A stretch of 64,000 nucleotides of DNA from the human T2T-CHM13v2.0 reference genome, Homo sapiens. The notes beneath the pieces are model-generated. The model saw only the letters and a program-made list of their open reading frames with translations. It did no database searches and had not been told where the DNA came from. Of the stretch, positions 9,999-64,000 are shown one piece after another. The stretch lies in NCBI RefSeq assembly GCF_009914755.1, contig NC_060927.1. One strand, written 5' to 3'. The position numbers and the translations under genes were made by a program. Position 1 is the first letter of the stretch. Every line of letters starts with the position of its first letter.

Positions 9999-10048
<50 letters not shown>

Positions 10049-10066
10049 CAGACAGATAGACAGACA
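9999..10066. repeat. (GATA)n/(GACA)n tetranucleotide microsatellite
   Basis: About 12 GATA units followed by mixed GACA/GATA. Confidence 0.95.
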
Positions 10067-12961
10067 TCATAATACCACAGAAACTTAAACCCAAAAGGAG
10101 TTTGAAAAGAAAAGGAAAACAAACCTAATATTTATTGAGGACCTATATGCCAGTCCCTAGCCCCCCAGCAAAAAAACAAAAAACAACAACAAAAACCCAT
10201 TCAGCATTATATTTAAAACTTGCAGCCACTTGGTGACATAATTAGTATTCATTATCATACTTTGAAGATGAGGAGATGAAGCTCAGAGAGGTTAAATGAC
10301 TGTCCTGGTCCACCCACCTAATAAGTGGTGGAGAGTGGTGGAGGCTGGGGTAGAGCTGGGGGCTCCTGAGGGGTCTTCTGTCACCCAGCACACTGTCAGA
10401 TACAGGGAAGGTTAACAAAATCACTACTGTTCAGGTAGTTTAACTTGGATTTCCTTTATAGATACAGCAGAGTATTTCAAACTATAATCTTTCAAACAAA
10501 CATACAAACAAACGCAGCATATTCTTGTGTTCTGATGTGAATACACATTAAGAGATCAGATTCAAAATCACCAAATCCCCACACCCTCTCCTTACAGCCT
10601 TAACAAGTGGCAGAAGAGGAGACTATTCCTCACGGGAAGCTGACCGTGCCCACGGCCCTGAGGAGGGATGAGGCTCTTGGAATGATTGTTAAGGGCTTTT
10701 TATGTGCCAGGTGCCATGTTATGTGTATTCCACACCTGGTTTAGTTTTATCCTTATATCAGTCTCATGATACATAATTATCCACATTAAGCAGATAAGCA
10801 AACAGCCTTAGAGAAGTTAGCTAATTTGCCTAAAGCCCAAACCTTATAGTGGCAGAGACAAATTTTGAGCTCAGGTCTGTCCAATTAGAGTTTAAGCCTT
10901 TAACCACTGTGATGGCAGCTCCTTCCATGGGGCAGCCATGTGCTCTGCCAAGGACCCTACCATTGTGGCCCCTGCTGGTCAGGCCAGAAGTGGATGCCAG
11001 CCATGCCAATGGCATGGGGTGGCAGCTCAAAAGAGTCAGCCTCCTCTTGATAGTCACTGGTCAATTAATCTCTCTGCTGGAAAATTCGAGTGTAAGACCC
11101 ACGGAAGGAATCAGAAGTTGACTGCAGAATCAACAGCTCTAAGCTGGTTGAGCTATCTTCCCCTACAGAACACAGCTTTTCAGTAATGATTCATAGACAA
11201 TGCAGAAGGATGTGGACCTCAGGGCTCCGGAATTTGGTTTGAATTCTGACATGTATATTTTCCAGAATTTTTTCTCCATAACTCTACTATTGACTTTTCT
11301 CCTCAACCCTTCATCAACTGAAAACTTTTGAAATTTTAAAATAAGCTCTTGATAATACAGATTTAGACTTTTTCCATTTTAAGTGATAATAATAGAAAAT
11401 AGCATTTCCCACAGAATAAGGGGACTATACTTCCTGGTTCAGCCAAGAGAGCCCTGTTATCCCAGCATGAATATTCACAGCACCTCTGTTCACTCCCAGT
11501 GGTGTCCCATTTTCTCAATACATTATAGTTACTGTTCGGGAAAAACTCTCAAACCGGTTTTCCTCTGTTCTCACACCACAACAATCAACACAGAAGACTT
11601 CTGCATTTCCTGAGGATTCCTTTCCACCACAAAGCAAGCAATCACTTCTGCAGCAGATACCAACTGGGTGTCCTCCAATTGAATTCTGACACTGTCTACC
11701 TGAAGATGGTGTCAGAGCCTGCCACTTTGGGGCCCACAACCCAAGAATCATGCTTCCCTCCTTAGATACCAGTCACAAGTCCGGCCCTCCAGAACTTTTG
11801 ACTGACCAGCTTTGAGTTGGGGTTCCCAAGACCTCCTCTTTGGGTTTGATTGGTTTACTGAAGCACCTCACAGAACTCAGGGAAACACATTTACCAGTTT
11901 ATTAAAAGGATATTACAAAGGATACAGATAAAGAGACGATACACAGGGCAAGGTATGGGGGAAGGGGCGCCAGAGCTTCCATGCTCTCCCTGGGCATACC
12001 ACCCCCCAGGAACCTCCACGTGGTATGGAAACTCTGTGAACCCAGGCCACTTGGGTTTTTATGGAGGCTTCATTATATAAGCATGATTGATTAAGTCATT
12101 GGCCATTGGTGATCAACTTAACCTTCAGCTTCTCTCCCCTCTTGGTAGGTTGGTGGTGGAGCTAAGTCCCAACCCTCTAATCATGCCTCTGTCTATGGTG
12201 ACCAGCCCCACCCTGAAGCTGTCAGTCTCTTATTGCAGGTAGCTAGGCAGACATGAGCAGGGCAGGAGACCCCCTCACCCCTGCCAAGGAATGTCAGGCA
12301 ACCATCAGGTGATGGTTAGGGAGGAGGACGAGGAATCTCACATACACGTTTTCCTCCATTTCTTGAATCACTTCCATGCCCTTGCCAATATGCATCCAGA
12401 CCTTCAAGGTCATATTTGAAGGGAAAGAAGTCCATTCCATTCTGGCAGTTGGCTGAACTGGTACAGACACAGGCTTCTCATCTACTTTAAGAAAAATGTG
12501 AAATGAGATGATAAGAAAAGAGATACTCACTTTGTTGCTAGAATGCTCTGAGAGAGTCACTGTAAGTTCATGGATACAAGGATATAGGCTGGCCCAAGGC
12601 CACAGGCTCAAGAGACAAAAGTACCCACCGGACAGAGATGAAGGCTGGTCCCAGGCTACAGGCACAGAATAGATTACCCTAGAACAGAGATGAAGGCAAG
12701 GTTAGGGGTATCCGTAAGACCAGTTCATTCTGAAACTCCAAGGATGAATAAGGGGACCCCTATTCACTCTGGTATCTCCTGTCTTCTCAGGTGGATAAAC
12801 ATGATGAGATGGGAGCAAGCTTAAGGGTACCAGGTAAGACCGGTTCACTCTGGAGCCCCAAGGATGAATGGGGGATACCCTGTTCAGGAAGGGATAATAG
12901 GGAAATAAGAGAGGATACCTTCTTTTTCCCTTTTTTTTAATCCTCTATTCTCTCTTCACAG

Positions 12962-14445
12962 ATGGATAATCACATATTCATACCATGGGACATGCCCCTC
13001 GGATGCATCCTCAAGAAGGGAGAAAAGTTTGAACCCCAAACCCTAAAAAGGAAAAGGCTAATATTTTTCTGTAACACAGCTTGGGTTGAATAAAATCTCC
13101 AGGACCAGTAATGTTGGCCAGAAAACAGAAGCATAAATTTTAATACAATCCATCAACTAGATTTGTTTTGCTGTCAACAGGGAAAATGAACAGAAATCCT
13201 TTATGTACAGGCCTTCGTGGCCCTAAGAAACAACCATGGCCTTTGTCAGGCTTGTAAAATGGATCCAGTGATGATAGCGGCCATTGTCAGGCAGCTGCCA
13301 CCAGTTGGTTTGGGAGGCCTCTTATTGGGTTTACCCAGGGCTCAAGCCCCAGAGGAACCAAGGGCAGAGCTTGGGTCAAACCCCACTGCCCCTTCTACCC
13401 CTTAATATCCAAGTCTTCCAGCCTTGGATCCTTGCTCTTTCTAGCCAGGGCCACCCTCTGGACACCACCCCCTTAAGTTATGCCCCTTTCAAGAGGTTAG
13501 CAGCCCCAGTGGACCCACTAGAGTCCAGACTCCGTTCACTATGTAAGACCTGAGCCAGATTAAGATGGAAGTAGGAAGTTTATGGAAGACCCTGAAAAAT
13601 ACATCAAAGCGTTCCGTAAACTGGGCTAAACATTTGAACTCACCTGGAGGGCCCTCTCAGTCATACTATGGCAAACTCTGTTTAAGGGAGAATGTGACTC
13701 CATTACAGAGGTGACCCAGCAATTTATAACTACAATGCACATGACTGACTCTGGTGGCAACACTGTGGGGGCCACCGCAGTTCCCTAGGTTGACCCTAAT
13801 TCGGGTTACCATACCTGGGGGCGGTATATGGGCAAGGAACCACATGTTTCTCTGTCTGGTAGAAGGAATGAAAGCTAGCAAAACAGAGCCTATGAACTAT
13901 AATAAATCGGCCTTAATAGATCAAGGCCCTCTTGAAAACCCCTAGAGAGGCTACAAGAGGCACTAATGAAACATACTAACCTAGACCCAGACACACCAGA
14001 AAGACAACTGACCCTAAAGGACCATTTCCTAACTCCGGCAGCCCCAGATATTCAGAGGAAACTCCAAAAGCTAGCACTGGGCCCCAACGCCCCGGGCCTG
14101 ATATCTTCAAAATAGCTTCCTCAATCTTCTACAACCAAAACCAGGAGAAGGAGGAAAGAGCTCAGGAAAAGGGAGGCAAAAGGAAAAGTAGCAGCTCCAA
14201 CTCTTGGCTGCACTACAAGTCTGCCAGCCCCCTCCAGGTTGCCCTCAGATTACCCTCGCAGGTAACTGCCATCAGCACAGGAGGGCAGGCCACTGGAAGG
14301 CAAACTGCCCCAATAGGACTGATGGAAAAAAGCCCCGCATGGCTTGCCCCCACTGCCACAAGCTTGGCCACTGAAAATGGGACTGCCCTGAGGATCGAAG
14401 GGACTCTGGGACAGAATCCCAACCCCTGATGGCCTTGAGCTGAAG
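12962..14445 (+). pseudogene. ERV gag remnant
   Basis: PLGCILK..KFEPQTLKRKRLIFFCNTAW matrix start; two decayed CCHC-type knuckles (NCHQHRRAGHWKANCP, ACPHCHKLGH*KWDCP); stops and frameshifts. Confidence 0.85.
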
Positions 14446-15082
14446 GAGCCCTACACATCAGCCAGCTCCCAGATTGAACATCACTGTTGAAGGGACAGAC
14501 CCAAGGGCTGCTTTGGACATGGCAGGTAGGACTATAAGTTTTCTTTTGGATATGGGAGTGGACTACTCAGTGCTTACCTCTTTTCCTGAGCAATTATCCT
14601 CCAAATCCTCGCTGGTGCTGGGGCTAAATGAGGTGCCTATAAGCTGAAGATTTACTCCTCCTCTCTGGTGCCTGTAGGGGGAAACTGTCTTTTCTCATTC
14701 ATTTTTAATGATGCCAGAATGTCCTATGCCCCTTTTGGGTAGAGATAGTTTATTTAGACTAGAGGCTTAGTTAACCTTTCCTCTAAGGCAACACCTCCTT
14801 TTCCAAATGCAATCTTATGCCTCAAGGAAACCACACACAGGATGAACTGCTAACAGACCTTTCCATTAATCCAGAGGTCTGGGCCACAGGAATACATGGA
14901 AAGGCCATAATGGCAATGCCTGTAGTAATTCATCTCAAGGATCCTTCTTGCTATCCTTGTAGAAGGCAGCTGGCCAAAGAGGGACTTTGGCTCCTGATTG
15001 AAAATTTTCTGTAACGTGAATTATTAATACTCGATAACTTGCCCTGTAACACCTGCATCCTACCTGTTAAGAAGAGCAATGA

Positions 15083-15429
<347 letters not shown>

Positions 15430-15475
15430 TCATAAATGAGGCAGTAGTCCCAGTGGTCCCCAACCCATATATATT

Positions 15476-16517
15476 AATAATTCTAGGAGAAGTACCTCCA
15501 GATACTCAGTTGTTTTCAGTCTTAGACCTCAAAGACACTTTCTTTCGTATCTCCCTAGACTCATCCTCCCAATTTTATTTGCATTTGAGTAGGAGAATAA
15601 GAAAGCAAGGCATCAACAGCTCACCTGGACAGTGCTTCCACAAGGTTTCACAGATAGTTCCCATTTGTTTGGGCAAGCCTTGGCTAGAGATTTGCAGGAC
15701 CTGACTCTTGAGGTGGGGCAGATGGCTCCTACAGCATATGGATGACCTGTTAATCTGCTCCCCCACAAGACAGCTGGGAATCCAACATCTAGTCCAGACA
15801 CTAAATTTACTGGCAGACAGAGGGCACAAGGTGTCCAAGGCCAAGACACAGCTACTAAGACAAGAGGTCCAATACTTGGAGATAATCATGACCCCTGGAG
15901 AACATAAGTTCTCCCCAGAATGGATACAGGCCATCTTTAAAATACTTCTCCCAGCCACCCAAAAGCAGCATCAGGCCTTTCTAGGGATCACAGGATATTG
16001 CAGAGTTTGGATACTGGGACATGGTGGGATTGTTCAGTACTTATATCAGGCTCTAAAAGAAAGGACTGATAGGCACCCACTTCTTTGGGTAAATGATCAG
16101 GAGCAAGACTTTATACAGCTAAAAACTGCCCTCTTACAAGCCCCAGACCTTGGGCTACTCACACTAACCAATCCATTTCAGCTTTTTGTCACTGAAAGGC
16201 AAGGTGTAGCCCTAGGAGTTCTAAGTCAAACCATCGAGCCAATCAAACATCCGGTAGGCTGTAGGAGCCATCTGCCCCACCTCAAGAGTCAGGTCCTGCA
16301 AATCTCTAGCCAAGGCTTGCCCAAACAAATGGGAACTATCTGTGAAACCTTGTGGAAGCACTGTCCAGGTGAGCTGTTGATGCCTTGCTTTCTTATTCTC
16401 CTACTCAAATGCAAATAAAATTGGGAGGATGAGTCTAGGGAGATACGAAAGAAAGTGTCTTTGAGGTCTAAGACTGAAAACAACTGAGTATCTGGAGGTA
16501 CTTCTCCTAGAATTATT
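15476..16517. repeat. Perfect 260-bp inverted repeat (arms 15476-15735 and 16258-16517; 522-bp spacer)
   Basis: A manual base-by-base reverse-complement comparison found no mismatch; identical peptides appear on opposite strands in the ORF track. Confidence 0.97.
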
Positions 16518-17901
16518 TTTAAAGAACCTAGACCCAGTAGTGCAAGTGTGGTCACACTTGTTGCAGTGGCCATCCTACTTGAGGAGGCCCTTAAAATCAC
16601 CATGGGACTGTCAGTCCGACTCCTGACATTCCAGCAAGTAGGCCCCTTATTGAACATAAAAGTGCCATAATGGCACACTGATAACAGACTGCTAAAGTAC
16701 CAAGTCTTGTTGTTAGAAAACCAACAGGTAACAGTTGAGTGGTATTCCACCCTTCACCCAGCCTCCTTACTGCCACTACGAGGAGACTATAACTCAACAC
16801 ATTCATGTTGTGAGATACTTAACCAAATTTATGCCAGCTGGGAAGACTCAAAGAATCAGCCCCTAGATAATCCGGACGAAATATGGTTTTCAGATTAAAG
16901 TAGTTTTGTCTGGAATGGAACTAGATATGCAGGGTACACTATAGTGTCCCTTCATCTAGTTCTGGAGGCTAAAGCTCTGTCCCCGGGGACCTCAGTGCAA
17001 GTAGCCAAACTCATTGCACTAACCAGAGCCCTAAAACTAGGGAAAGAAAAAGAATAACCATGTATACAGATTTTAAATACGCCTTTCTGGTGTCTCATGT
17101 CCATGTGGCTATCTGAAAGGAAAGGGGGGTACCTAACAGCTTGGGATACTCCTATTAAGTATGGGCCTCAAATCTTAGAGCTCCTAGAGGCTGTTCATTT
17201 GCCCTGGGAAGTGGCAGTAGTGCACTGTAGAGGACACCAGAAGGGTTCTGATGAAACTGCATGAGGAAAACGGTTAGCTGACCAAAAAGCTAAAGAGGCA
17301 GCCGTCTCAAAAAATACCTTCATGGAGGCCTCGCTCCCCTCTCCCACCAGTGAACTGCCCCCTTTCCAGTACACTAAGGAAGAAATAGATTGGGCCACCC
17401 AACGTGGGTATAAGGAAGAAATCAGTGGTTGGTACAGGTTGGGAGGGCTTCTCTATCTACCTAAAGCCTCCCAAAGAAAGTCATCAAGAGTTTCCACAAC
17501 TCCTGCCGCCTTGGAAAGGACAGACTAGGGCAAATTTGTAAATGGGCGTTTAGCAGGAAGGCACTAAATAAAACTATTCAACAGATTTGTCAAGCCTGCA
17601 CCTTGTGCACCATAAATAATCCTCTGAGAGAGAAGCCCCCTCCATTAATAAGTGCAATCCAAAGGAGAGGCACATACCCTGGGGAGGACTGGCAGATGGA
17701 CTTCACTCAGCTTCCCAAATGCTACAGGAGCTGAGTGAAACTCAACTCCAACCCATGGAGCCACCTGCCCTGACAGCTAACAAGAGGCCAAGAACCACAG
17801 AACAACCACCACTGCCCCTCTGTCAGCAGGAAGCAGTTACAGAAGACTGTTCTTCGTCCATTTTCCCAAAGAATTGGGTCTTGGACTCTTTAGGGGGGAA
17901 A

Positions 17902-18596
17902 TGTTAGAGTAGGTAGTTAGGCAGACATGAGCAGGGCACAAGGGGGCCCTCCTCCCCACCAGGAATGTCAGGCAACTCTCCGATGATGGTCAGGCAACTC
18001 TCCGATGATGGTCAGGCAGTTGTCAAACTGTCTCTCTAAAATAGTAATTAGTTGCAGCTGGCAACTAGACAGTCTCCCAATAGACAGAAAACACTTGAAG
18101 CTGGTGATCAGTGGCTTCCCAGTAAGATCTCAGGAATTGGGGAAAATGGGCTGAAGCATGCACACTAAGCAGCAAAATGGTGGAGTTTAACTGGTAGATG
18201 ACCTTCACCTAAGAACACTCAGTTGGTAAGGGAAAAACGCCTCAAGTGAGCATATGTACAACTTCCTAAACACACTGCGCATGCAGCCCCTCCCAAGTGC
18301 TGGCAGGCCAGTGTACTGAGGACAAGCTGTCCTGAAGGAAAAAATCAAAGAAGAGAGATGCAAAACCCCAGAAGCATGCCAACGTATAAAACCCCAAGTC
18401 AAGGGCCAGATGGGGCACTTGGATCTCTCAGGTCACCCACTTGGCCCTCTTCCAAGTGTATTTTACTTCCTTTCACTCCTGCTCTAAAACTTGCCTCTGT
18501 TTCTCCCTCTGCCTTATGCCCCTCAGTTGAATTCTTTCCTTTGAGGAGGTCAGAATCGAGTTGCTGCAGACCCATGCAGATTCGGCATTACTAACA
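17902..18596 (+). mobile_element. 3' LTR (MER50-like)
   Basis: tgttagagtaggtag...ctaaca; TATA-like gtataaaa near 18385; internal 22-bp tandem duplication 17967-18010. Confidence 0.85.
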
Positions 18597-19181
18597 AGTC
18601 AACATTAGCATACAAAAAACATAGCACTTGGAAGATTCCAAGAATTTTAGGAGTTGTATGCCAGGAAATGGGGATGAAGACCAAATATCTATTGCATAAT
18701 ATCACAGTCACTCTCTCCATGAGTCAAGTAGTTCCCTGAGATAGTAAAGAGTGTTTCATCAACAATATTAGACCCTGTGGTCAAATAAGTTTTGAAAACA
18801 GGATTGGATGAAGACAAAAAACAAAGTCCATACCACAGGACTCTGGGGAACCTCCAAATGTTTAAAAATGAGCCCCTGGTTGCAGTTGCTTCCAGGAGTC
18901 CAGGAAGCAATTGCAGCTGGAGATTTGCCATTTCATACTTGTGAGCAGTTTATCTTGTAAGGGATGGGGACTTCAATTCACCTTTGGGCAAAATGTTTCT
19001 TTATTTTGGGAAAAAACACTGAAATGGGCCTCTTTGTGCCCATTCTCTGTTTTATACTTAAAAACAAAAACAGAGTTTGGTAATAGAAACTGTTTGGTAA
19101 TAGAAAAGTTGTATTTGGTTAAATCACAGCTATTTATTCATCAATAAATATTTATGGAGCACTCCAGGTATTATTCTGGAT

Positions 19182-58031: not shown

Positions 58032-58479
58032 TATAACCTGCATGGACCTAGGGGGACTGAACAAAGGGGGCGAACGCAGGAATAAAAGACAAAGATGAAA
58101 GAGTATATTTGGAAGAAGGGGTCAGGGGGCACCTTGCCTCTAGTGGACAAGGGCCCTGAGCTTTACACAGCCCTCCATATTTATTAGGCAAAAGAGATAG
58201 CGAGAAGGGTGGCGTGGAAAAGGGGTCGGCTGCTCGGTCCAGAGTAGGCTTGCAAGACTGCATTCTCTAGATGTCCCAGTAGATAACCTTAAGGAACTCA
58301 GTGCCAGGAAGTGACTGCCTTCAGCAAACCATCTGGCAGTGAGAGCAGTCGTGAGTTTGCCCACATCCTGCATTCATGATAAACAGTTTGCTGTTTGATC
58401 ATATAGCCTCCAGTGGAATGCTGAGTTGGTCATGTCCCATGGGCCTTTGGCTCCCTGCATATCCCCCTTTCTGTTTATG

Positions 58480-60400
58480 TATTAATTGAAAGAATGTAAG
58501 GCCAGGCTGAGCAGCTCTCATTTTTTGATTGGCAGTCCATCTGAGTTTACAGACTATAAACAGAAGACAGAGACAAAAAAACATTATTCCAAGAACTACA
58601 TATAAGATGTTAATGTGGTGCTTTAGATAGGTCCAAGGGTTGAGGCTCTCCAGGCCTTCCTGGAATTTGGTCCAGTCTTCTAAAGAAGGCTGAAACTCTT
58701 GAGTTTGCCTATTTAAATCAAGAATTTTGTTTTATAATTCACCAATATCAAAGGTGATGTTGGATGTGAAAGCTCCCTGCAAATGGGCTTTCACAAGGTC
58801 CCATGGATACTCACTTTGGTTATATTTTAAGTTGGTTACACAAATATGAGTGTGATTAAAATGACAACGCAATTGCTGCTGCAATTGCAAGCTTTGTGCT
58901 TTTCCCCTAACCATAGAACCGTGGATTTCAACATTGCCACTTCAGTTTGTAACTCAGTGTTAATTTTATTCTGAAGTAGCCACACTTGGTAGGCTGTGTG
59001 CATCCATTTCTCCACATACTGAGCTGTTTGAATAGAATTATGCAAAGCTACAGAAGACATCACAACAGAAGTTATTAGTGTGACCAAGGAAACAATAGCA
59101 AAAATTATCAGGCCCAAGGCTCTACAGACACGATGAGTAAGCTAAGTTAGAAGAAGTTTCACAAAATGCAAAGCAGGTGTGGCAGCCCAAGGCTCGGACA
59201 GATTAACAGGAATCCATAGCCAAGGGATGCAACCTAAAATCATCAAAGTAGAGATACTACGTGTTTGCAATGTGCTATGATTAATGCAGTGATATAACTG
59301 GCAAGATTTACAGGTCAATTTGGTATTGTTTACCTGGAGCTGGTCCTTCTTAGCTGCCAAAAAGACATAAGGATTAAAAACACAAACTGTAAATTGAGTG
59401 GTGATATTCTTTACAAATGTAACATTAAGACTGTGTGGCTTACTATTGCTATTATTGGATAGTATTCCAACCCAGATGTTGCTATTCATAAATGGGAGTG
59501 CTGCATTCCATATTGTCTCTTGAATTGGTCCTTTCCTTCCTAGATAATGCCACTGAGGAAGAGGTGGGCTAAAGCCTGCTCCATGCCAAGCAATCTGGGT
59601 GGCAGACTGGGATTGGATGCCAGTGTTGTATAAAGAAGAAGAATTAAAAGCTTGCCACCAATGCCAGCACAGTTTGTGCCATGATTTCTGATTTTTGTCT
59701 TTTCCATCTAATTGACCTTTAGGTCCGCAATGTCTCCAGTTAACATAGATTGTTTTCTAGCCAGTGGGCCAGGACAGGGGGTCCATGGACGGGGGTAGGA
59801 ACTATTGAAGGGAATCCATTCTGTATAGTCAGCACAATTAGGGCGACTGGGCCGGGAATGGTTGATTAGCACACCAGTTACGTTAATAGAACCAAGACTT
59901 AATAAGTACATGATTTTACCATAGTGACTCAACCATGTTTGAGCTTGAATTGTAAGACAGCTATGGCTGAGTGACGTTTTTGTGGTGATACACAAAGGGA
60001 GCCCTTCCAGTGGAGCGGTATAATTAATGACATTATTCTGAGAGTCTAACTGTTCTATGTCAGGGGGAGTTTGGGATCCTGGAGCCCACTCTCCCTGATT
60101 GTGATAAATCTCAGGAGGAGTGTCACTCCAAAGTACAGGTCGTACTGCTGGGGGATTGGGAACATATGCCTAATATGTTTTTGCTTCTGCACAGGAAAAC
60201 ATACCGCACAGGACATTATGGCTAACATGGCCAAGAACATGGAATCAGGGGTTTTTGCCTGTCCCTGACACTCCAGTAGTTTCTCAGTTTCCTGTGTGGC
60301 TTTCTTGAGTTGTCCCCAGGTTACGGGGGTTGATGTCATTGTGATTCTGGTCGGCCTTCTCTCCCTCTTTGCACTCAGGCTCAGCTGGCTCATGGCTCGT
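58480..60400 (-). pseudogene. HML-6 env remnant
   Basis: Leader TWGQLKKATQE..TPDSMFLAML; TM-like IIFAIVSLVTLITS..VALHNSIQTAQYV; CHFNHTHICVT loop; frameshifted. Confidence 0.85.
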
Positions 60401-63009
60401 ACCGGAGGGACTGGGCCCATGGTTGGCCACCCTGGGTTCCTCTAGTCTCCCATTATGTGGTCGCATGCACCTTGAGGGCACCCACACGGCTTGTCCATCT
60501 CCTGTGAAAACACAAGCATATCCTCTTCCCCACTTCAGTAAACCCACCAGACCTTTTCATTGTCCTTCTTCCAGGGATTTCCGTAACATTTTTGGATAAA
60601 CTTTCCTCTTTTCCTCTAACACTTGCCAATGTCTTTTTGCCGGAGTCTTACCATCCATACCAGGAGTCAAAAAATTTAAAGTAAATAAGGCTAAATATAG
60701 TTTTGATTGAGGTGGTAGTTGGCCTCCTATACCCACTTTTTGTCTTTTCAACATGCATTGTAATGTTTGATGTGCCTGCTCTATAATGCCTTGTCCTCTA
60801 GGATTATAAGGAATTCCTGTTTTATGGGTTATAGCCCAAAGCTGCAAGAAATTTTTAAAAGCGTGACTAGTATAAGCGGGTCCATTGCCAGTTTTTAATT
60901 GTTTAGGTATCCCCATATGAGCAAATGGTGATAGGCAATGTCACTGTACATGACCAGCTGTCTCACCTGTTTGGCACATAACATGCAGCGTATGAAAATA
61001 AGTGTCTATAGTCACATGAACATAGCTTACCAAAGGTTGCTGTGTGTGTAACATCCATTTGCCAAATTTCATTTGGAGCCAAACCTCGTGGATTACATCC
61101 TTCTACAGGTGTGGCTCCAGGGGCATGCTGGCAAGTAGGACAGGTTTGTGTTATAGCCCTAATATGCCTGTGAGATAAATGGAACATGTGAGTAAGGGCG
61201 GAAGTATTTTGGTGCAGAAGCGCATGAGATGCTTGAGCTTGCTGAAACACAGAACCAATCAGTTTGTCTGCTTTCTCATTACCTAGAGATAGTGGCCCAG
61301 GAAGTTGTGTGTGAGAATAAATATGAGAAATATGAAAAGAAGCTGCATGAGAGCGAATAACTTGTTGAAGTCTTAAAAATAAGCAGTTCTGGGTCTAGTG
61401 TATTTTTAATTGTAGCAGTTTCTATGTGACTGGCTACATTTACAACGTAAGCTGAATCACAGACAATTTTGATAGGATCTGAAGCTGTGAGCTCTAACAC
61501 CTGAATGACTGCAATTAGCTCTGAGGATTGAGCTGAAACCCCAGAGGTCATTATTGTTTGAGTATGTTTTGGTCCATAGATAGCTGCATGACCTTTGGAA
61601 GAACCATCAGTAAAATAAGTCTGTCCACCTGGAGTAGGCTTGTGATGAATAATGAATAATCACAGGAAGAATGAAAGAATGGATTTTATAAAATTGTAAA
61701 ATTTTGTCTGAAGGGTAGTGGTTATCTATAGCACCCACGAAGTCTGCAAAAGTAGTCTGCCAGGCAGTTGACATTTCCCAAGCTGTGGCTTGTTGCTGGG
61801 AGTCTACAGGAACAATAATTTTGTCAGGATCATATCCCATAAGCATTCTTGACCTATGCCTGCCCATAGTCACAATTTGTGTAATTAAAGAAAGATAAAC
61901 TTGCAAGGTTTTGACTGTTTGATTAGGTAGAAAGAGCCATTCTATTACTGTTACAGACTTGTCTATGAACTGGCCCAAAAGTCCTCTTGGAGAGTTGGGG
62001 GTAGGAAGAATAAACAAAAGCAAAGGTTTTTGCAGTTGTAGCGGTGAGGCATGTCTCTGCTGTGACATTTGCTCTACAAGCCGTAATTCGGCTTCTGCCT
62101 CTTTAGTTAATTGCTGCAGCGAATTTAAAGAACAGTCTCCTTGCAGGGTTTGGTAAAGATGTGTAAGTTGATAGGTAGCAGCAATACTTAACATCGGTCG
62201 TAGCCAGTTAATATCTCCTAATTGTTGAAAATCATTTAAAGTCTGTAACCTGTCTTTACAGAGAACTACTTTCTGAAGCCGTACACTCCTCTCCATTAAC
62301 AATACTTCCTAAGTATTGGTATGGGGAAGTTGTTTGCACTTTCTCTGGAGCAATTTTGAGATTCCATTTGACAAGAGCTCGCTTTACTTCTCTGAATAAT
62401 TTATGTAAAATTTGATCTGTAGGAGGGGCCAAAAGAATATCATCCATAAAATGAATGATATACGCAGTGGGAAACATATTTTGAGGCTCCTTTAATGCTC
62501 CTCCCACAAAATGCTGAGGTAATGTGGGACTGTTAAGCATGCCTTGAGGTAAAACTTCCCATTGATAGTGAGACACGTTCTCTTTGATTAACAGAAGGCA
62601 CAGAGAAGGCAAATAGAGGCTCATCCTTCTCGTGTAAGGAGGGTATAGTAAAGAAACTATCCTTAAGATCTATAATTACAAGAGGCCAGTCTCTTGAAAT
62701 GGCCACTGGGGAAGGTAAACCTTGCTGTAATGCGCCCATCGGTTTAATTTGTGCATTAATAGCTCTCAAATTATGCAGCAATCACCATCTTCTGGACTTT
62801 TTTTGGAATAACAAATACCGGTGAATTCCAGGGGCTGACTTTTCTGTATGTCCTGCATTCAATTGCTCTTTTACCAACAGATGAAGTTGATCTAGCTTCT
62901 CCTGTGTTAGGGGTCATTGATCCACCCACACAGGTTTGTCACTAAGCCATTCTAATGGTAAGGGCTTAGGCGGAGGAGAAATATCAATGACCCCCGTCAG
63001 AAATTCTGA

Positions 63010-63010
<1 letters not shown>
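60400..63010 (-). pseudogene. HML-6 pol remnant (RT, RNase H, integrase)
   Basis: [75 protein letters not shown]. Confidence 0.92.

Positions 63011-64000
<990 letters not shown>

What the first reader, a model, noticed from the sequence alone, without database searches (positions are those of the whole stretch)
15476..16517. Perfect 260-bp templated inverted insertion inside an ancient ERV pol
Seen: 16258-16517 is the exact reverse complement (260/260) of 15476-15735, with a 522-bp spacer. The host provirus is old: its two LTR starts differ at many positions and its ORFs are broken. Removing the copy restores the pol connection motif CCG GTA GGC TAT TTT T-A AAG AAC CTA GAC CCA GTA (PVGYF-KNLDPV), so essentially nothing was deleted. 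The junctions show microhomology (GCT left, TATT right), with no TSD or poly-A. Inference: a very recent microhomology-mediated template switch (MMBIR/FoSTeS or Pol-theta templated insertion), possibly human-specific or polymorphic. Gene conversion between the arms could also maintain the identity.
Basis: partly seen in the sequence, partly recalled or inferred. Interest (0 to 1): 0.8.

Follow-up and report, generated by a model that had tools for sequence, protein, structure and literature searches.

The report
Inverted self-copy inside an old retrovirus relic
A 260-base stretch of a decayed endogenous retrovirus was copied backwards and pasted about 520 bases downstream, an ordinary DNA copying or repair slip that is evolutionarily young but is carried by at least two human reference genomes.

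Summary
Window 16258-16517 is the exact reverse complement (260/260) of 15476-15735, with a 522-nt spacer. It is the only inverted repeat in the window above 89% identity.

Arm 1 is the original. All 11 related ERV copies elsewhere in the genome are colinear through it and lack the second arm. The insert replaced 0-2 nt, has no target-site duplication and no poly-A, and shows GCT (3 nt) and TT (2 nt, possibly TATT) microhomology.

Arm 2 carries all 16 changes private to this copy, so it was made late in the provirus's history.

Best reading: one microhomology-mediated switch-and-return template switch, pattern 3-2-1-4 / 1-4-3-2. It is larger than the catalogued short-range events.

Zero differences only bound the age at about 6-7.5 Myr (95%). 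8.7% of 260-nt windows are identical between an X/Y pair of the same family. "Human-specific or polymorphic" is untested.

A published hg19 provirus table implies that GRCh37 carries the insert too. That argues against an assembly artefact or a variant private to CHM13.

This is a new member of a known kind, of modest interest.

The parts
15476..15735 (+). Source arm (the template): a stretch of pol in sense orientation. It covers the reverse-transcriptase region from the LDLKD-like motif through the LPQGF motif and ends just before the YxDD-type motif (HMDD here).
   Evidence: Colinear with 11 paralogous copies at 75-85% identity. RVT_1 hits on the overlapping frames. ORF translations.
15736..16257 (+). 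522-nt spacer: native pol sequence (end of RT, start of the RNase H-like connection domain), in its original orientation.
   Evidence: Colinear with paralogs (query 4-859 continuous). RVT_1 profile 149-201 and RT_RNaseH_2 profile 1-63 of 100.
16258..16517 (-). Inserted inverted copy of 15476-15735. It interrupts the RT_RNaseH_2 domain, with a net gain of 253 nt.
   Evidence: 260/260 reverse complement. It is a gap in 11 of 11 paralogs. It is 100% identical to the local arm but at most 85.5% to any other copy.
16255..16260 (+). Left junction. GCT (16258-16260) is shared by the host sequence and the copied sequence, and 5 of 6 nt (TAnGCT) match the template context.
16514..16520 (+). Right junction. 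The copy ends in ...ATTATT and the host resumes in its T-run. TT (16516-16517) is shared. 0-2 host nt are lost, depending on the ancestral base.
16540..16575 (+). Cluster of changes private to this copy, 25-55 nt past the return junction: a 13-nt deletion relative to paralogs, several substitutions, and a perfect 8-nt hairpin (16543-16550 / 16553-16560). It may belong to the same event; this was not resolved.
   Evidence: alignment. (7 private changes in bin 16518-16567, against about 2.3 per 50 nt elsewhere)..
12230..18597 (+). Host provirus, class I and HERV-FRD-like (MER50 LTR). 5' LTR remnant 12230-12320, leader and gag from about 12322, gag stop 14441-14443, pro, pol, and 3' LTR about 17899-18597. 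No env lies between integrase and the 3' LTR.
   Evidence: Vargiu et al. 2016 supplementary file 1, row 2080.
15076..15398 (+). Alu inserted in pol, 78 nt upstream of the source arm. It is not part of the duplication.
   Evidence: Hub repeat mask. Metazoa_SRP-like Rfam hits at 15084-15378. Alu-type direct repeats.

Best explanation
One switch-and-return template switch copied 257-260 nt of the provirus's own pol in reverse complement into a site 522 nt downstream. Read on the + strand: a growing + strand ending ...GGTAGGCT-3' left its template. It annealed by GCT (5 of 6 nt, TAnGCT) to AGC at 15733-15735 on a + strand. That strand was either its own upstream part folded back or the opposite template across the fork. 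It was extended leftwards to 15476, then returned to the original template in the host T-run through TT. The host lost 0-2 nt. Read on the - strand, the same product is pattern 1-4-3-2, which only an inter-strand switch can give. I put about 0.45 on a replication-fork or MMBIR-type switch and about 0.35 on snap-back synthesis at a resected double-strand break (SD-MMEJ / Pol-theta type); the product is the same. The event happened late in the provirus's history, most likely within the last 6-7 Myr, and the allele is in both GRCh37 and CHM13. Shown here: identity, polarity, junctions, absence from paralogs, inheritance of the private changes, and equal length in hg19. Inferred: the enzymology, the exact age, and fixation. 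No function is implied. The result is a perfect 260-bp inverted repeat able to form a long hairpin in single-stranded DNA or RNA.
For: 260/260 reverse complement. In 11 of 11 paralogs (10 independent, since L007 and L009 are an X/Y pair) the two flanks of the insert are adjacent, and one search shows query 4-859 followed directly by 1117-1301 in each copy. The copy is 100% identical to the local arm and at most 85.5% to other copies, so the template was local. There is no duplicated target and no A-tail, with GCT and TT shared at the junctions; chance of at least 3 nt is 0.016 and of at least 2 nt is 0.06. 16 substitutions where at least 80% of paralogs differ (8 seen in no paralog), plus one private 1-nt gap in arm 1, are all present in arm 2. 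This places the event in the last 9-19% or less of the copy's private history. Loytynoja & Goldman 2017 (PMC5453318, passages) define event 3-2-1-4 as creating an inverted repeat. Walker et al. 2021 (PMC7954356, passages) report 1-4-3-2 and 3-2-1-4 as the majority patterns generating single inverted repeats. Osia et al. 2021 (PMC8421209, passages) describe MMBIR templated insertions as inverted copies of nearby templates flanked by microhomology, with about 100 germline events of at least 25 bp per person. For hg19: the gag-end landmarks of two proviruses flanking the insert are 49,677 nt apart in hg19 and 49,677 nt apart in the window. In addition, bin 10 of the hg19 similarity string falls on 16206-16531 and is reverse-oriented to the same reference as the forward-oriented bins 7-8.
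Against: No orthologous ape sequence, read data or population data could be examined, so the ancestral state rests on paralogs, not orthologues. The copied length (260 nt) and the jump (522 nt) exceed the ranges those catalogues searched: 100-200 bp flanks, templates within 100 bp. Membership of those sets is therefore by mechanism, not by their operational criteria. Microhomologies of 2-3 nt are weak evidence on their own. Arm-to-arm gene conversion could erase differences and make the event look younger than it is. The hg19 inference assumes that RetroTector's 'gagpos2' is the base before the gag stop codon in both proviruses, and that no compensating indel exists.
Confidence: 0.8

Rival explanations
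1. The inverted duplication is old (shared with other apes or monkeys), and its arms have been kept identical by repeated arm-to-arm gene conversion, as in sex-chromosome palindromes.
For: Arms are perfectly identical inside a provirus whose copies differ by 15-25%. Arm-to-arm conversion is documented for large palindromes (abstracts of PMC6790999 and PMC8327919 in the listing).
Against: The arms are only 260 nt long. That is near the lower limit for efficient homologous exchange in mammals (recalled, not tested). Documented cases have kilobase-scale arms. Identity ends sharply at microhomology junctions. Recent origin is simpler and fits zero differences. Nothing in the sequence distinguishes the two readings directly.
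Confidence: 0.08
2. Assembly or consensus artefact of the T2T-CHM13 assembly (a fold-back chimera).
For: None beyond the fact that fold-back chimeras occur in single reads (general knowledge).
Against: The structure of about 1 kb lies well within single long reads. The hg19 provirus table gives the same inter-landmark distance (49,677 nt) and a reverse-oriented segment exactly where the copy lies. An independent clone-based assembly therefore shows it too.
Confidence: 0.02
3. The rearrangement was made by retroviral reverse transcriptase (strand transfer) before or at integration, so it is as old as the provirus.
For: Retroviral RT switches templates readily (general knowledge).
Against: Both arms share 16 changes and a 1-nt gap private to this copy. 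No other family copy carries the insert: 0 of 11 and 0 of 10 loci with any inverted repeat. Arms as old as the provirus would have diverged, as the LTR remnants have (80% over 85 nt).
Confidence: 0.01
4. A non-templated cut-and-paste or capture event: a double-stranded fragment of the sister chromatid or homologue was ligated by end joining into a break, or an L1-endonuclease-mediated insertion.
For: End joining can capture fragments, and junction identities of 2-3 nt are also seen in classical end joining (general knowledge).
Against: The source is intact and lies only 522 nt away on the same molecule. There is no target-site duplication, no poly-A and no endonuclease-type site. Capture would need a fragment excised from a second copy of exactly this locus.
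Confidence: 0.05

Closest known systems
Template switch mutations, four-point model, event type 3-2-1-4 (equivalently 1-4-3-2 on the other strand); Loytynoja & Goldman 2017, Walker et al. 2021
   Same: A fragment is copied in reverse complement from nearby sequence between one switch and one return. The product is a single new inverted repeat, the spacer is not inverted, and both intra- and inter-strand routes are possible (passages).
   Different: Those catalogues searched about 100-200 bp around mutation clusters, with fragments from 10 nt up. Here the fragment is 260 nt and the jump 522 nt. The event is a net 253-nt insertion rather than a cluster of substitutions. It was not found in Walker's supplementary files: 0 hits for 12 coordinate prefixes in 6 files. 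Those prefixes rest on derived hg38 coordinates.
MMBIR-type templated insertions (MMB-TI), Osia et al. 2021
   Same: An insertion in inverted orientation to a nearby template, flanked by microhomologies; such events are present as germline variants in healthy people (passages).
   Different: Their operational definition puts the template within 100 bp and limits insert length to the read length. Here the template is 522 nt away and the insert is 260 nt.
Snap-back synthesis in alternative end joining (SD-MMEJ / polymerase-theta-mediated end joining)
   Same: A resected 3' tail folds back on itself at a microhomology, is extended, unwinds and anneals to the other end. This leaves a templated inverted insert with little deletion (abstracts of PMC5728401, PMC2943611 and PMC7165422 in the listing).
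   Different: Typical templated inserts are a few to a few tens of nt (recalled). 257 nt of synthesis and a 522-nt loop would be unusually long.
Large sex-chromosome palindromes maintained by gene conversion
   Same: Near-identical inverted arms around a unique spacer.
   Different: Those arms are kilobases to megabases long, conserved across species and gene-bearing (abstracts in the listing). This one is 260 nt, non-coding and probably young.

Membership tests
Template switch mutation, four-point model type 3-2-1-4 / 1-4-3-2 | The middle fragment is the exact reverse complement of nearby sequence on the same chromosome | tested here: met
   260/260. The local arm is the best donor: 100% against at most 85.5% for paralogs.
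Template switch mutation, four-point model type 3-2-1-4 / 1-4-3-2 | Order of switch points 3<2<1<=4, giving a single inverted repeat without spacer inversion | tested here: met
   Point 3 = 15476, point 2 = 15735, point 1 = 16260, point 4 is adjacent to point 1 in paralogs. The spacer is colinear with paralogs.
Template switch mutation, four-point model type 3-2-1-4 / 1-4-3-2 | Short range, as operationally searched (flanks of 100-200 bp) | tested here: not met
Template switch mutation, four-point model type 3-2-1-4 / 1-4-3-2 | Ancestral state without the event shown by an orthologous outgroup | not testable with these tools
   No primate genomes are held. Paralogs served as proxy, and 11 of 11 lack it.
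MMBIR templated insertion (MMB-TI) | Inverted insert with microhomology at both junctions | tested here: met
   GCT on the left, TT on the right.
MMBIR templated insertion (MMB-TI) | Template within 100 bp of the insertion | tested here: not met
   522 nt. Criterion taken from passages of PMC8421209.
MMBIR templated insertion (MMB-TI) | Further switches or a mutation cluster near the junction (low-processivity synthesis) | tested here: inconclusive
   A 13-nt deletion plus 7 private changes lie in the 50 nt after the return junction, against about 2.3 per 50 nt elsewhere. No nearby template was found for them beyond a local 8-nt hairpin. Whether they arose together cannot be known without orthologues.
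Polymerase-theta end joining with snap-back templated insertion | 2-6 nt microhomology, a small deletion, and an insert templated from flanking DNA | tested here: met
Polymerase-theta end joining with snap-back templated insertion | Dependence on POLQ; inserts usually of tens of nt | not testable with these tools
   The length of 257-260 nt is atypical (recalled). Enzyme dependence needs an experiment.
Retrotransposition (target-primed reverse transcription) | Target-site duplication and a poly-A tail | tested here: not met
   The flanks abut directly in paralogs, with 0-2 nt lost and no A-run at either end of the insert.
Palindrome kept by arm-to-arm gene conversion | Presence in related species, with the arms homogenised within each species | not testable with these tools
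   No ape sequences were available.
Host element: class I (gamma-like) ERV, HERV-FRD-like with MER50 LTR | gag with two zinc knuckles, in-frame gag-pro, RT, RNase H and integrase domains; labelled HERV-FRD-like with MER50 by a published classification | tested here: met
   Zinc knuckles at 14267 and 14345, with the gag stop at 14441-14443 in frame with pro. Pfam RVT_1, RT_RNaseH_2 and Integrase_H2C2 hits, all below their gathering scores. Vargiu 2016 supplementary file 1, row 2080, lists the same knuckle peptides with polclass ERV_FRD_pol, supergroup HERVFRDLIKE and RepeatMasker MER50.

The most novel reading that the evidence does not exclude
The insert is human-lineage-specific and still segregating. 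When the provirus is transcribed, its perfect 260-bp inverted repeat makes a long double-stranded RNA hairpin. Alternatively, it flips the 522-bp spacer by recombination between the arms. Either way it would affect innate sensing or regulation in the FYCO1-XCR1-CXCR6 chemokine-receptor cluster at 3p21.31. A milder novel reading: the insert, the 13-nt deletion and the mutation cluster just past the junction are one multi-switch MMBIR event fixed in the germline.
Probability: 0.03. Interest if true: 0.6.

Novelty: new member of a known kind. Interest (0 to 1): 0.25.

Why it matters
It is a clean example of a template-switch insertion of intermediate size, and its age can be bounded. At 260 nt copied over a 522-nt jump, it is too large for the short-range template-switch scans and too small for CNV-level MMBIR studies. 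Perfect inverted repeats of this size can form hairpins or cruciforms, can mediate inversion of their spacer, and confuse short-read mapping. A census of such repeats in complete assemblies could measure how often the process acts in the germline. For this locus itself nothing points to a function: it lies in a dead provirus, outside the annotated exons given for the window.

Tried and rejected
1. Earlier scan notes: the search of earlier findings was not open.

2. Dating by LTRs: only 85 nt of the 5' LTR remnant align to the 3' LTR, at 80%. The 5' LTR is mostly deleted, so no usable LTR clock exists. I used paralog-private changes and the X/Y pair instead.

3. Published inverted-repeat maps (PMC11794170): the abstract says pairs of at least 200 bp and at least 80% identity were mapped in GRCh37, GRCh38 and T2T. 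The maps themselves are on GitHub (section 17). The two readable supplementary files have 0 hits for XCR1, FYCO1 or LOC105377063.

4. Walker 2021 supplementary files: 0 hits for 12 hg38 coordinate prefixes, 460035-460046, in 6 files. Their method caps gaps at 50, so absence is expected.

5. Ape structural-variant tables: PMC6178954 is not held (the id was recalled).

6. First attempts to map hg19 to the window from the gag ATG or RetroTector LTR ends gave conflicting offsets (46029323 to 46029710). RetroTector's LTR segments (192 nt) sit inside the true 426-nt LTRs. Only the gag-stop rule gave one offset for both proviruses.

7. Rfam: no RNA family on either arm, only Alu-type SRP and miRNA-like hits at 15084-15378.

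8. A nearby donor for the cluster at 16540-16575: only chance 8-9-mers were found.

9. The HERV locus reported as transcribed near XCR1 (PMC13186335) is a different provirus: HML6, window 58034 onward.

Full report
**Observation**

A script confirms that window 16258-16517 is the exact reverse complement of 15476-15735, 260 of 260, with 522 nt between the arms. The repeat finder lists 263-nt arms as 100%.

Across the whole window, 8 inverted pairs of at least 60 nt lie within 5 kb of each other. The other seven are 83-89% complementary and lie at NCBI-masked repeat stretches; I checked only 15076-15398 as Alu. Only this pair is perfect. As a control, 0 of 10 loci holding related ERV copies (about 38 kb) contain any inverted repeat of at least 40 nt. 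As single-stranded DNA the region folds into one uninterrupted 260-bp stem, with a minimum free energy of -395.7 kcal/mol. No Rfam family matches either arm.

**Which arm is the copy**

I searched the window's own genome with 15400-16700. Related copies on chromosomes 14, 9, X, 3, 7, 4, Y and 12 match query 4-859 and then continue directly at about 1117-1301. They are colinear through arm 1 and the spacer and skip arm 2.

I aligned 11 copies across the site: L002-L011 and L015, of which L007 and L009 are an X/Y pair, leaving 10 independent copies. In all 11 the two flanks of the insert are adjacent, reading ...CCTGTAGGTTAC|TTTTCAAAGAACCTAGACCCAG... with small variations.

The inserted arm is 100% identical to the local arm and at most 85.5% identical to any other copy, so the template was local. 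The insert sits at profile position about 63 of 100 of the RT_RNaseH_2 domain. Arm 1 covers the RT region just upstream of the YxDD-type motif.

**Junctions**

- Left: the host ends ...CCGGTAGGCT and the copy begins GCTGTAGG..., so GCT belongs to both. Counting the template context, 5 of 6 nt (TAnGCT) agree.
- Right: the copy ends ...GAATTATT and the host continues TTTAAAG. The host T-run has five Ts in the window, as in two of the 11 paralogs (L003 and L005); the other nine read TTTTC there. TT is therefore shared.
- Host loss and gain: the host lost 0-2 nt, and the net gain is 253 nt.
TATT therefore depends on a base that cannot be observed.
- Other signatures: there is no target-site duplication and no A-tail. 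By chance, at least 3 nt of junction identity has probability 0.016, and at least 2 nt has probability 0.06.

**Host element**

The provirus is a decayed class I element. Its frames are broken throughout, and the Pfam hits to RVT_1, RT_RNaseH_2 and Integrase_H2C2 all fall below their gathering scores. An Alu sits in pol at 15076-15398.

The only LTR-to-LTR match is 12237-12320 against 17911-17994, at 80% over 85 nt. Own-genome searches show that 17899-18597 is a common LTR of about 700 nt. They also show that 12322-13085 is leader plus the start of gag, not an LTR. The 5' LTR is therefore almost wholly deleted, and env is missing between integrase and the 3' LTR.

Supplementary file 1 of Vargiu et al. 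2016 (PMC4724089; I read rows 2080 and 2778 only) lists this provirus as rvnr 938, at hg19 chr3:46042891-46049398. It gives the same two zinc-knuckle peptides, polclass ERV_FRD_pol, supergroup HERVFRDLIKE and RepeatMasker label MER50.

**Age**

Arm 1 holds 16 positions where the window differs from a base held by at least 80% of 11 paralogs. At 8 of these the window base occurs in no paralog. There is also one private 1-nt gap. All of these are present in arm 2, so the copy was made after them, within the last 9% (k=16) to 19% (k=8) of this copy's private history at 95% confidence.

In absolute terms, zero differences in 260 nt bounds arm-to-arm divergence at 1.15% or less. Using recalled human-chimpanzee figures (1.0-1.2% divergence, 6.5 Myr) and a flat prior:

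- median age 1.4-1.7 Myr;
- 95% upper bound 6.2-7.5 Myr;
- probability of being younger than the human-chimpanzee split 0.93-0.96.

An in-genome calibrator tempers this. The X and Y copies of the same ERV family (L007, L009) are 98.7% identical, with 41 substitutions in 3,834 nt. I recall that pair as lying in the X-transposed region, which duplicated a few Myr ago. 8.7% of their 260-nt windows are identical. "Young" is therefore justified, but "very recent" is not shown. Gene conversion would invalidate all of these bounds.

**Is it only in CHM13?**

The Vargiu table gives hg19 landmarks on both sides of the insert.

- Host provirus (rvnr 938): gagpos2 = 46044054. In the window the gag-frame stop that precedes the in-frame protease ORF is at 14441-14443, so the last gag base is 14440.
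- HML6 provirus downstream (rvnr 937, row 2778): gagpos2 = 46093731. The stop of the frame carrying its second zinc knuckle is at 64116-64114, so the last gag base is 64117.

Both landmarks give the same offset, 46029614. The distance between them is 49,677 nt in hg19 and 49,677 nt in CHM13. Without the insert it would be 49,424. A shift of 253 nt would place either gag end upstream of its own zinc knuckles, which is impossible.

A third landmark fits the same offset: propos1 of rvnr 937 falls on the first base after a stop codon. With this offset, bin 10 of the table's 20-bin similarity string covers 16206-16531. That bin is reverse-oriented to the same reference (con_herv4) that bins 7-8 match in forward orientation.

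I conclude, at about 85-90% confidence, that GRCh37 carries the insert. This argues against an assembly artefact and against a private CHM13 allele. It says nothing about fixation.

**Mechanism**

The product is what the four-point template-switch model, or 1-4-3-2 read on the other strand. Loytynoja & Goldman 2017 state that 3-2-1-4 creates an inverted repeat (passages). Walker et al. 2021 report these two patterns as the majority and as generating single inverted repeats. They add that intra-strand switching is possible only when point 2 precedes point 1 (passages). Osia et al. 2021 describe the MMBIR signature as an insertion inverted relative to a nearby template and flanked by microhomologies, with about 100 germline events of at least 25 bp per person (passages).

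I commit to a single switch-and-return event. I put about 0.45 on a replication-fork or MMBIR route and about 0.35 on snap-back synthesis at a resected break. The sequence cannot separate them.

The event is larger than those catalogues could see: their flanks were 100-200 bp and their templates lay within 100 bp. It is therefore a member of the kind by mechanism, not by their operational criteria.

A possible trace of low-processivity synthesis lies 25-55 nt past the return junction. It comprises a 13-nt deletion relative to paralogs and 7 private changes in the first 50-nt bin, against about 2.3 per bin elsewhere. There is also a perfected 8-nt hairpin. After allowing for 36 bins this is only suggestive, and its timing is unknown.

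**Rivals**

- An old duplication kept identical by gene conversion: 0.08.
- Fragment capture by end joining: 0.05.
- Assembly artefact: 0.02.
- Rearrangement by retroviral RT before integration: 0.01. The shared private changes and the absence from all other copies contradict it.

**What stays open**

No ape orthologue, read set or population call set could be reached. The bioRxiv and PMC copy of the primate SV paper had no readable supplements. Those supplements may already answer whether the insert is human-specific or polymorphic.

I found no paper on this particular event in searches for 3p21.31, XCR1, structural variant and endogenous retrovirus. The template-switch and inverted-duplication searches also found none.

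**Verdict**

The feature is real and neatly explained, and it belongs to a known mutational class. It is of modest interest unless it proves to be polymorphic or transcribed.

Noticed in passing
window 58034-64000, continuing to about 66352 (L021): An HML6 (HERVK3/LTR3) provirus on the minus strand. Its 3' LTR at 58034-58459 is 92% identical over 428 nt to the 5' LTR at 65926-66352 (window-equivalent). It is rvnr 937 in the Vargiu table. It matches the hg38 locus that a 2026 PLoS One paper reports as transcribed in CD14+ monocytes of long-COVID patients.
   Followed up: partly
window 16540-16575: A 13-nt deletion relative to paralogs, a cluster of private substitutions, and a perfect 8-nt hairpin (16543-16550 / 16553-16560), just past the return junction. 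It may be a second small template switch of the same event.
   Followed up: partly
window 12791-12833 and 12962-13161: The last two annotated exons of lncRNA LOC105377063 lie inside the provirus leader and the start of gag (gag ATG at 12985). The lncRNA is therefore partly ERV-derived and ends 2.3 kb upstream of the source arm.
   Followed up: no
window 12230-12320 vs 17904-17994: Only the first 90 nt or so of the 5' LTR survive. In three other copies (chromosomes 7, 8 and 14), about 1.1 kb lies between the 5' LTR and the sequence that abuts the remnant here, so this copy has a large 5' deletion.
   Followed up: partly
window 17967-18010: A perfect 22-nt tandem duplication in the 3' LTR.
   Followed up: no
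L007 (chrX) and L009 (chrY): An X/Y pair of the same ERV family, 98.7% identical over 3,834 nt. It was used here as an internal clock. I recall it as lying in the X-transposed region.
   Followed up: partly
window 12714-12766 and 12834-12886: A 53-nt direct repeat (79% identity) in the provirus leader, 120 nt apart.
   Followed up: no
window 10000-10071: An (ATAG)n / (ACAG)n microsatellite upstream of the provirus, likely variable in length.
   Followed up: no
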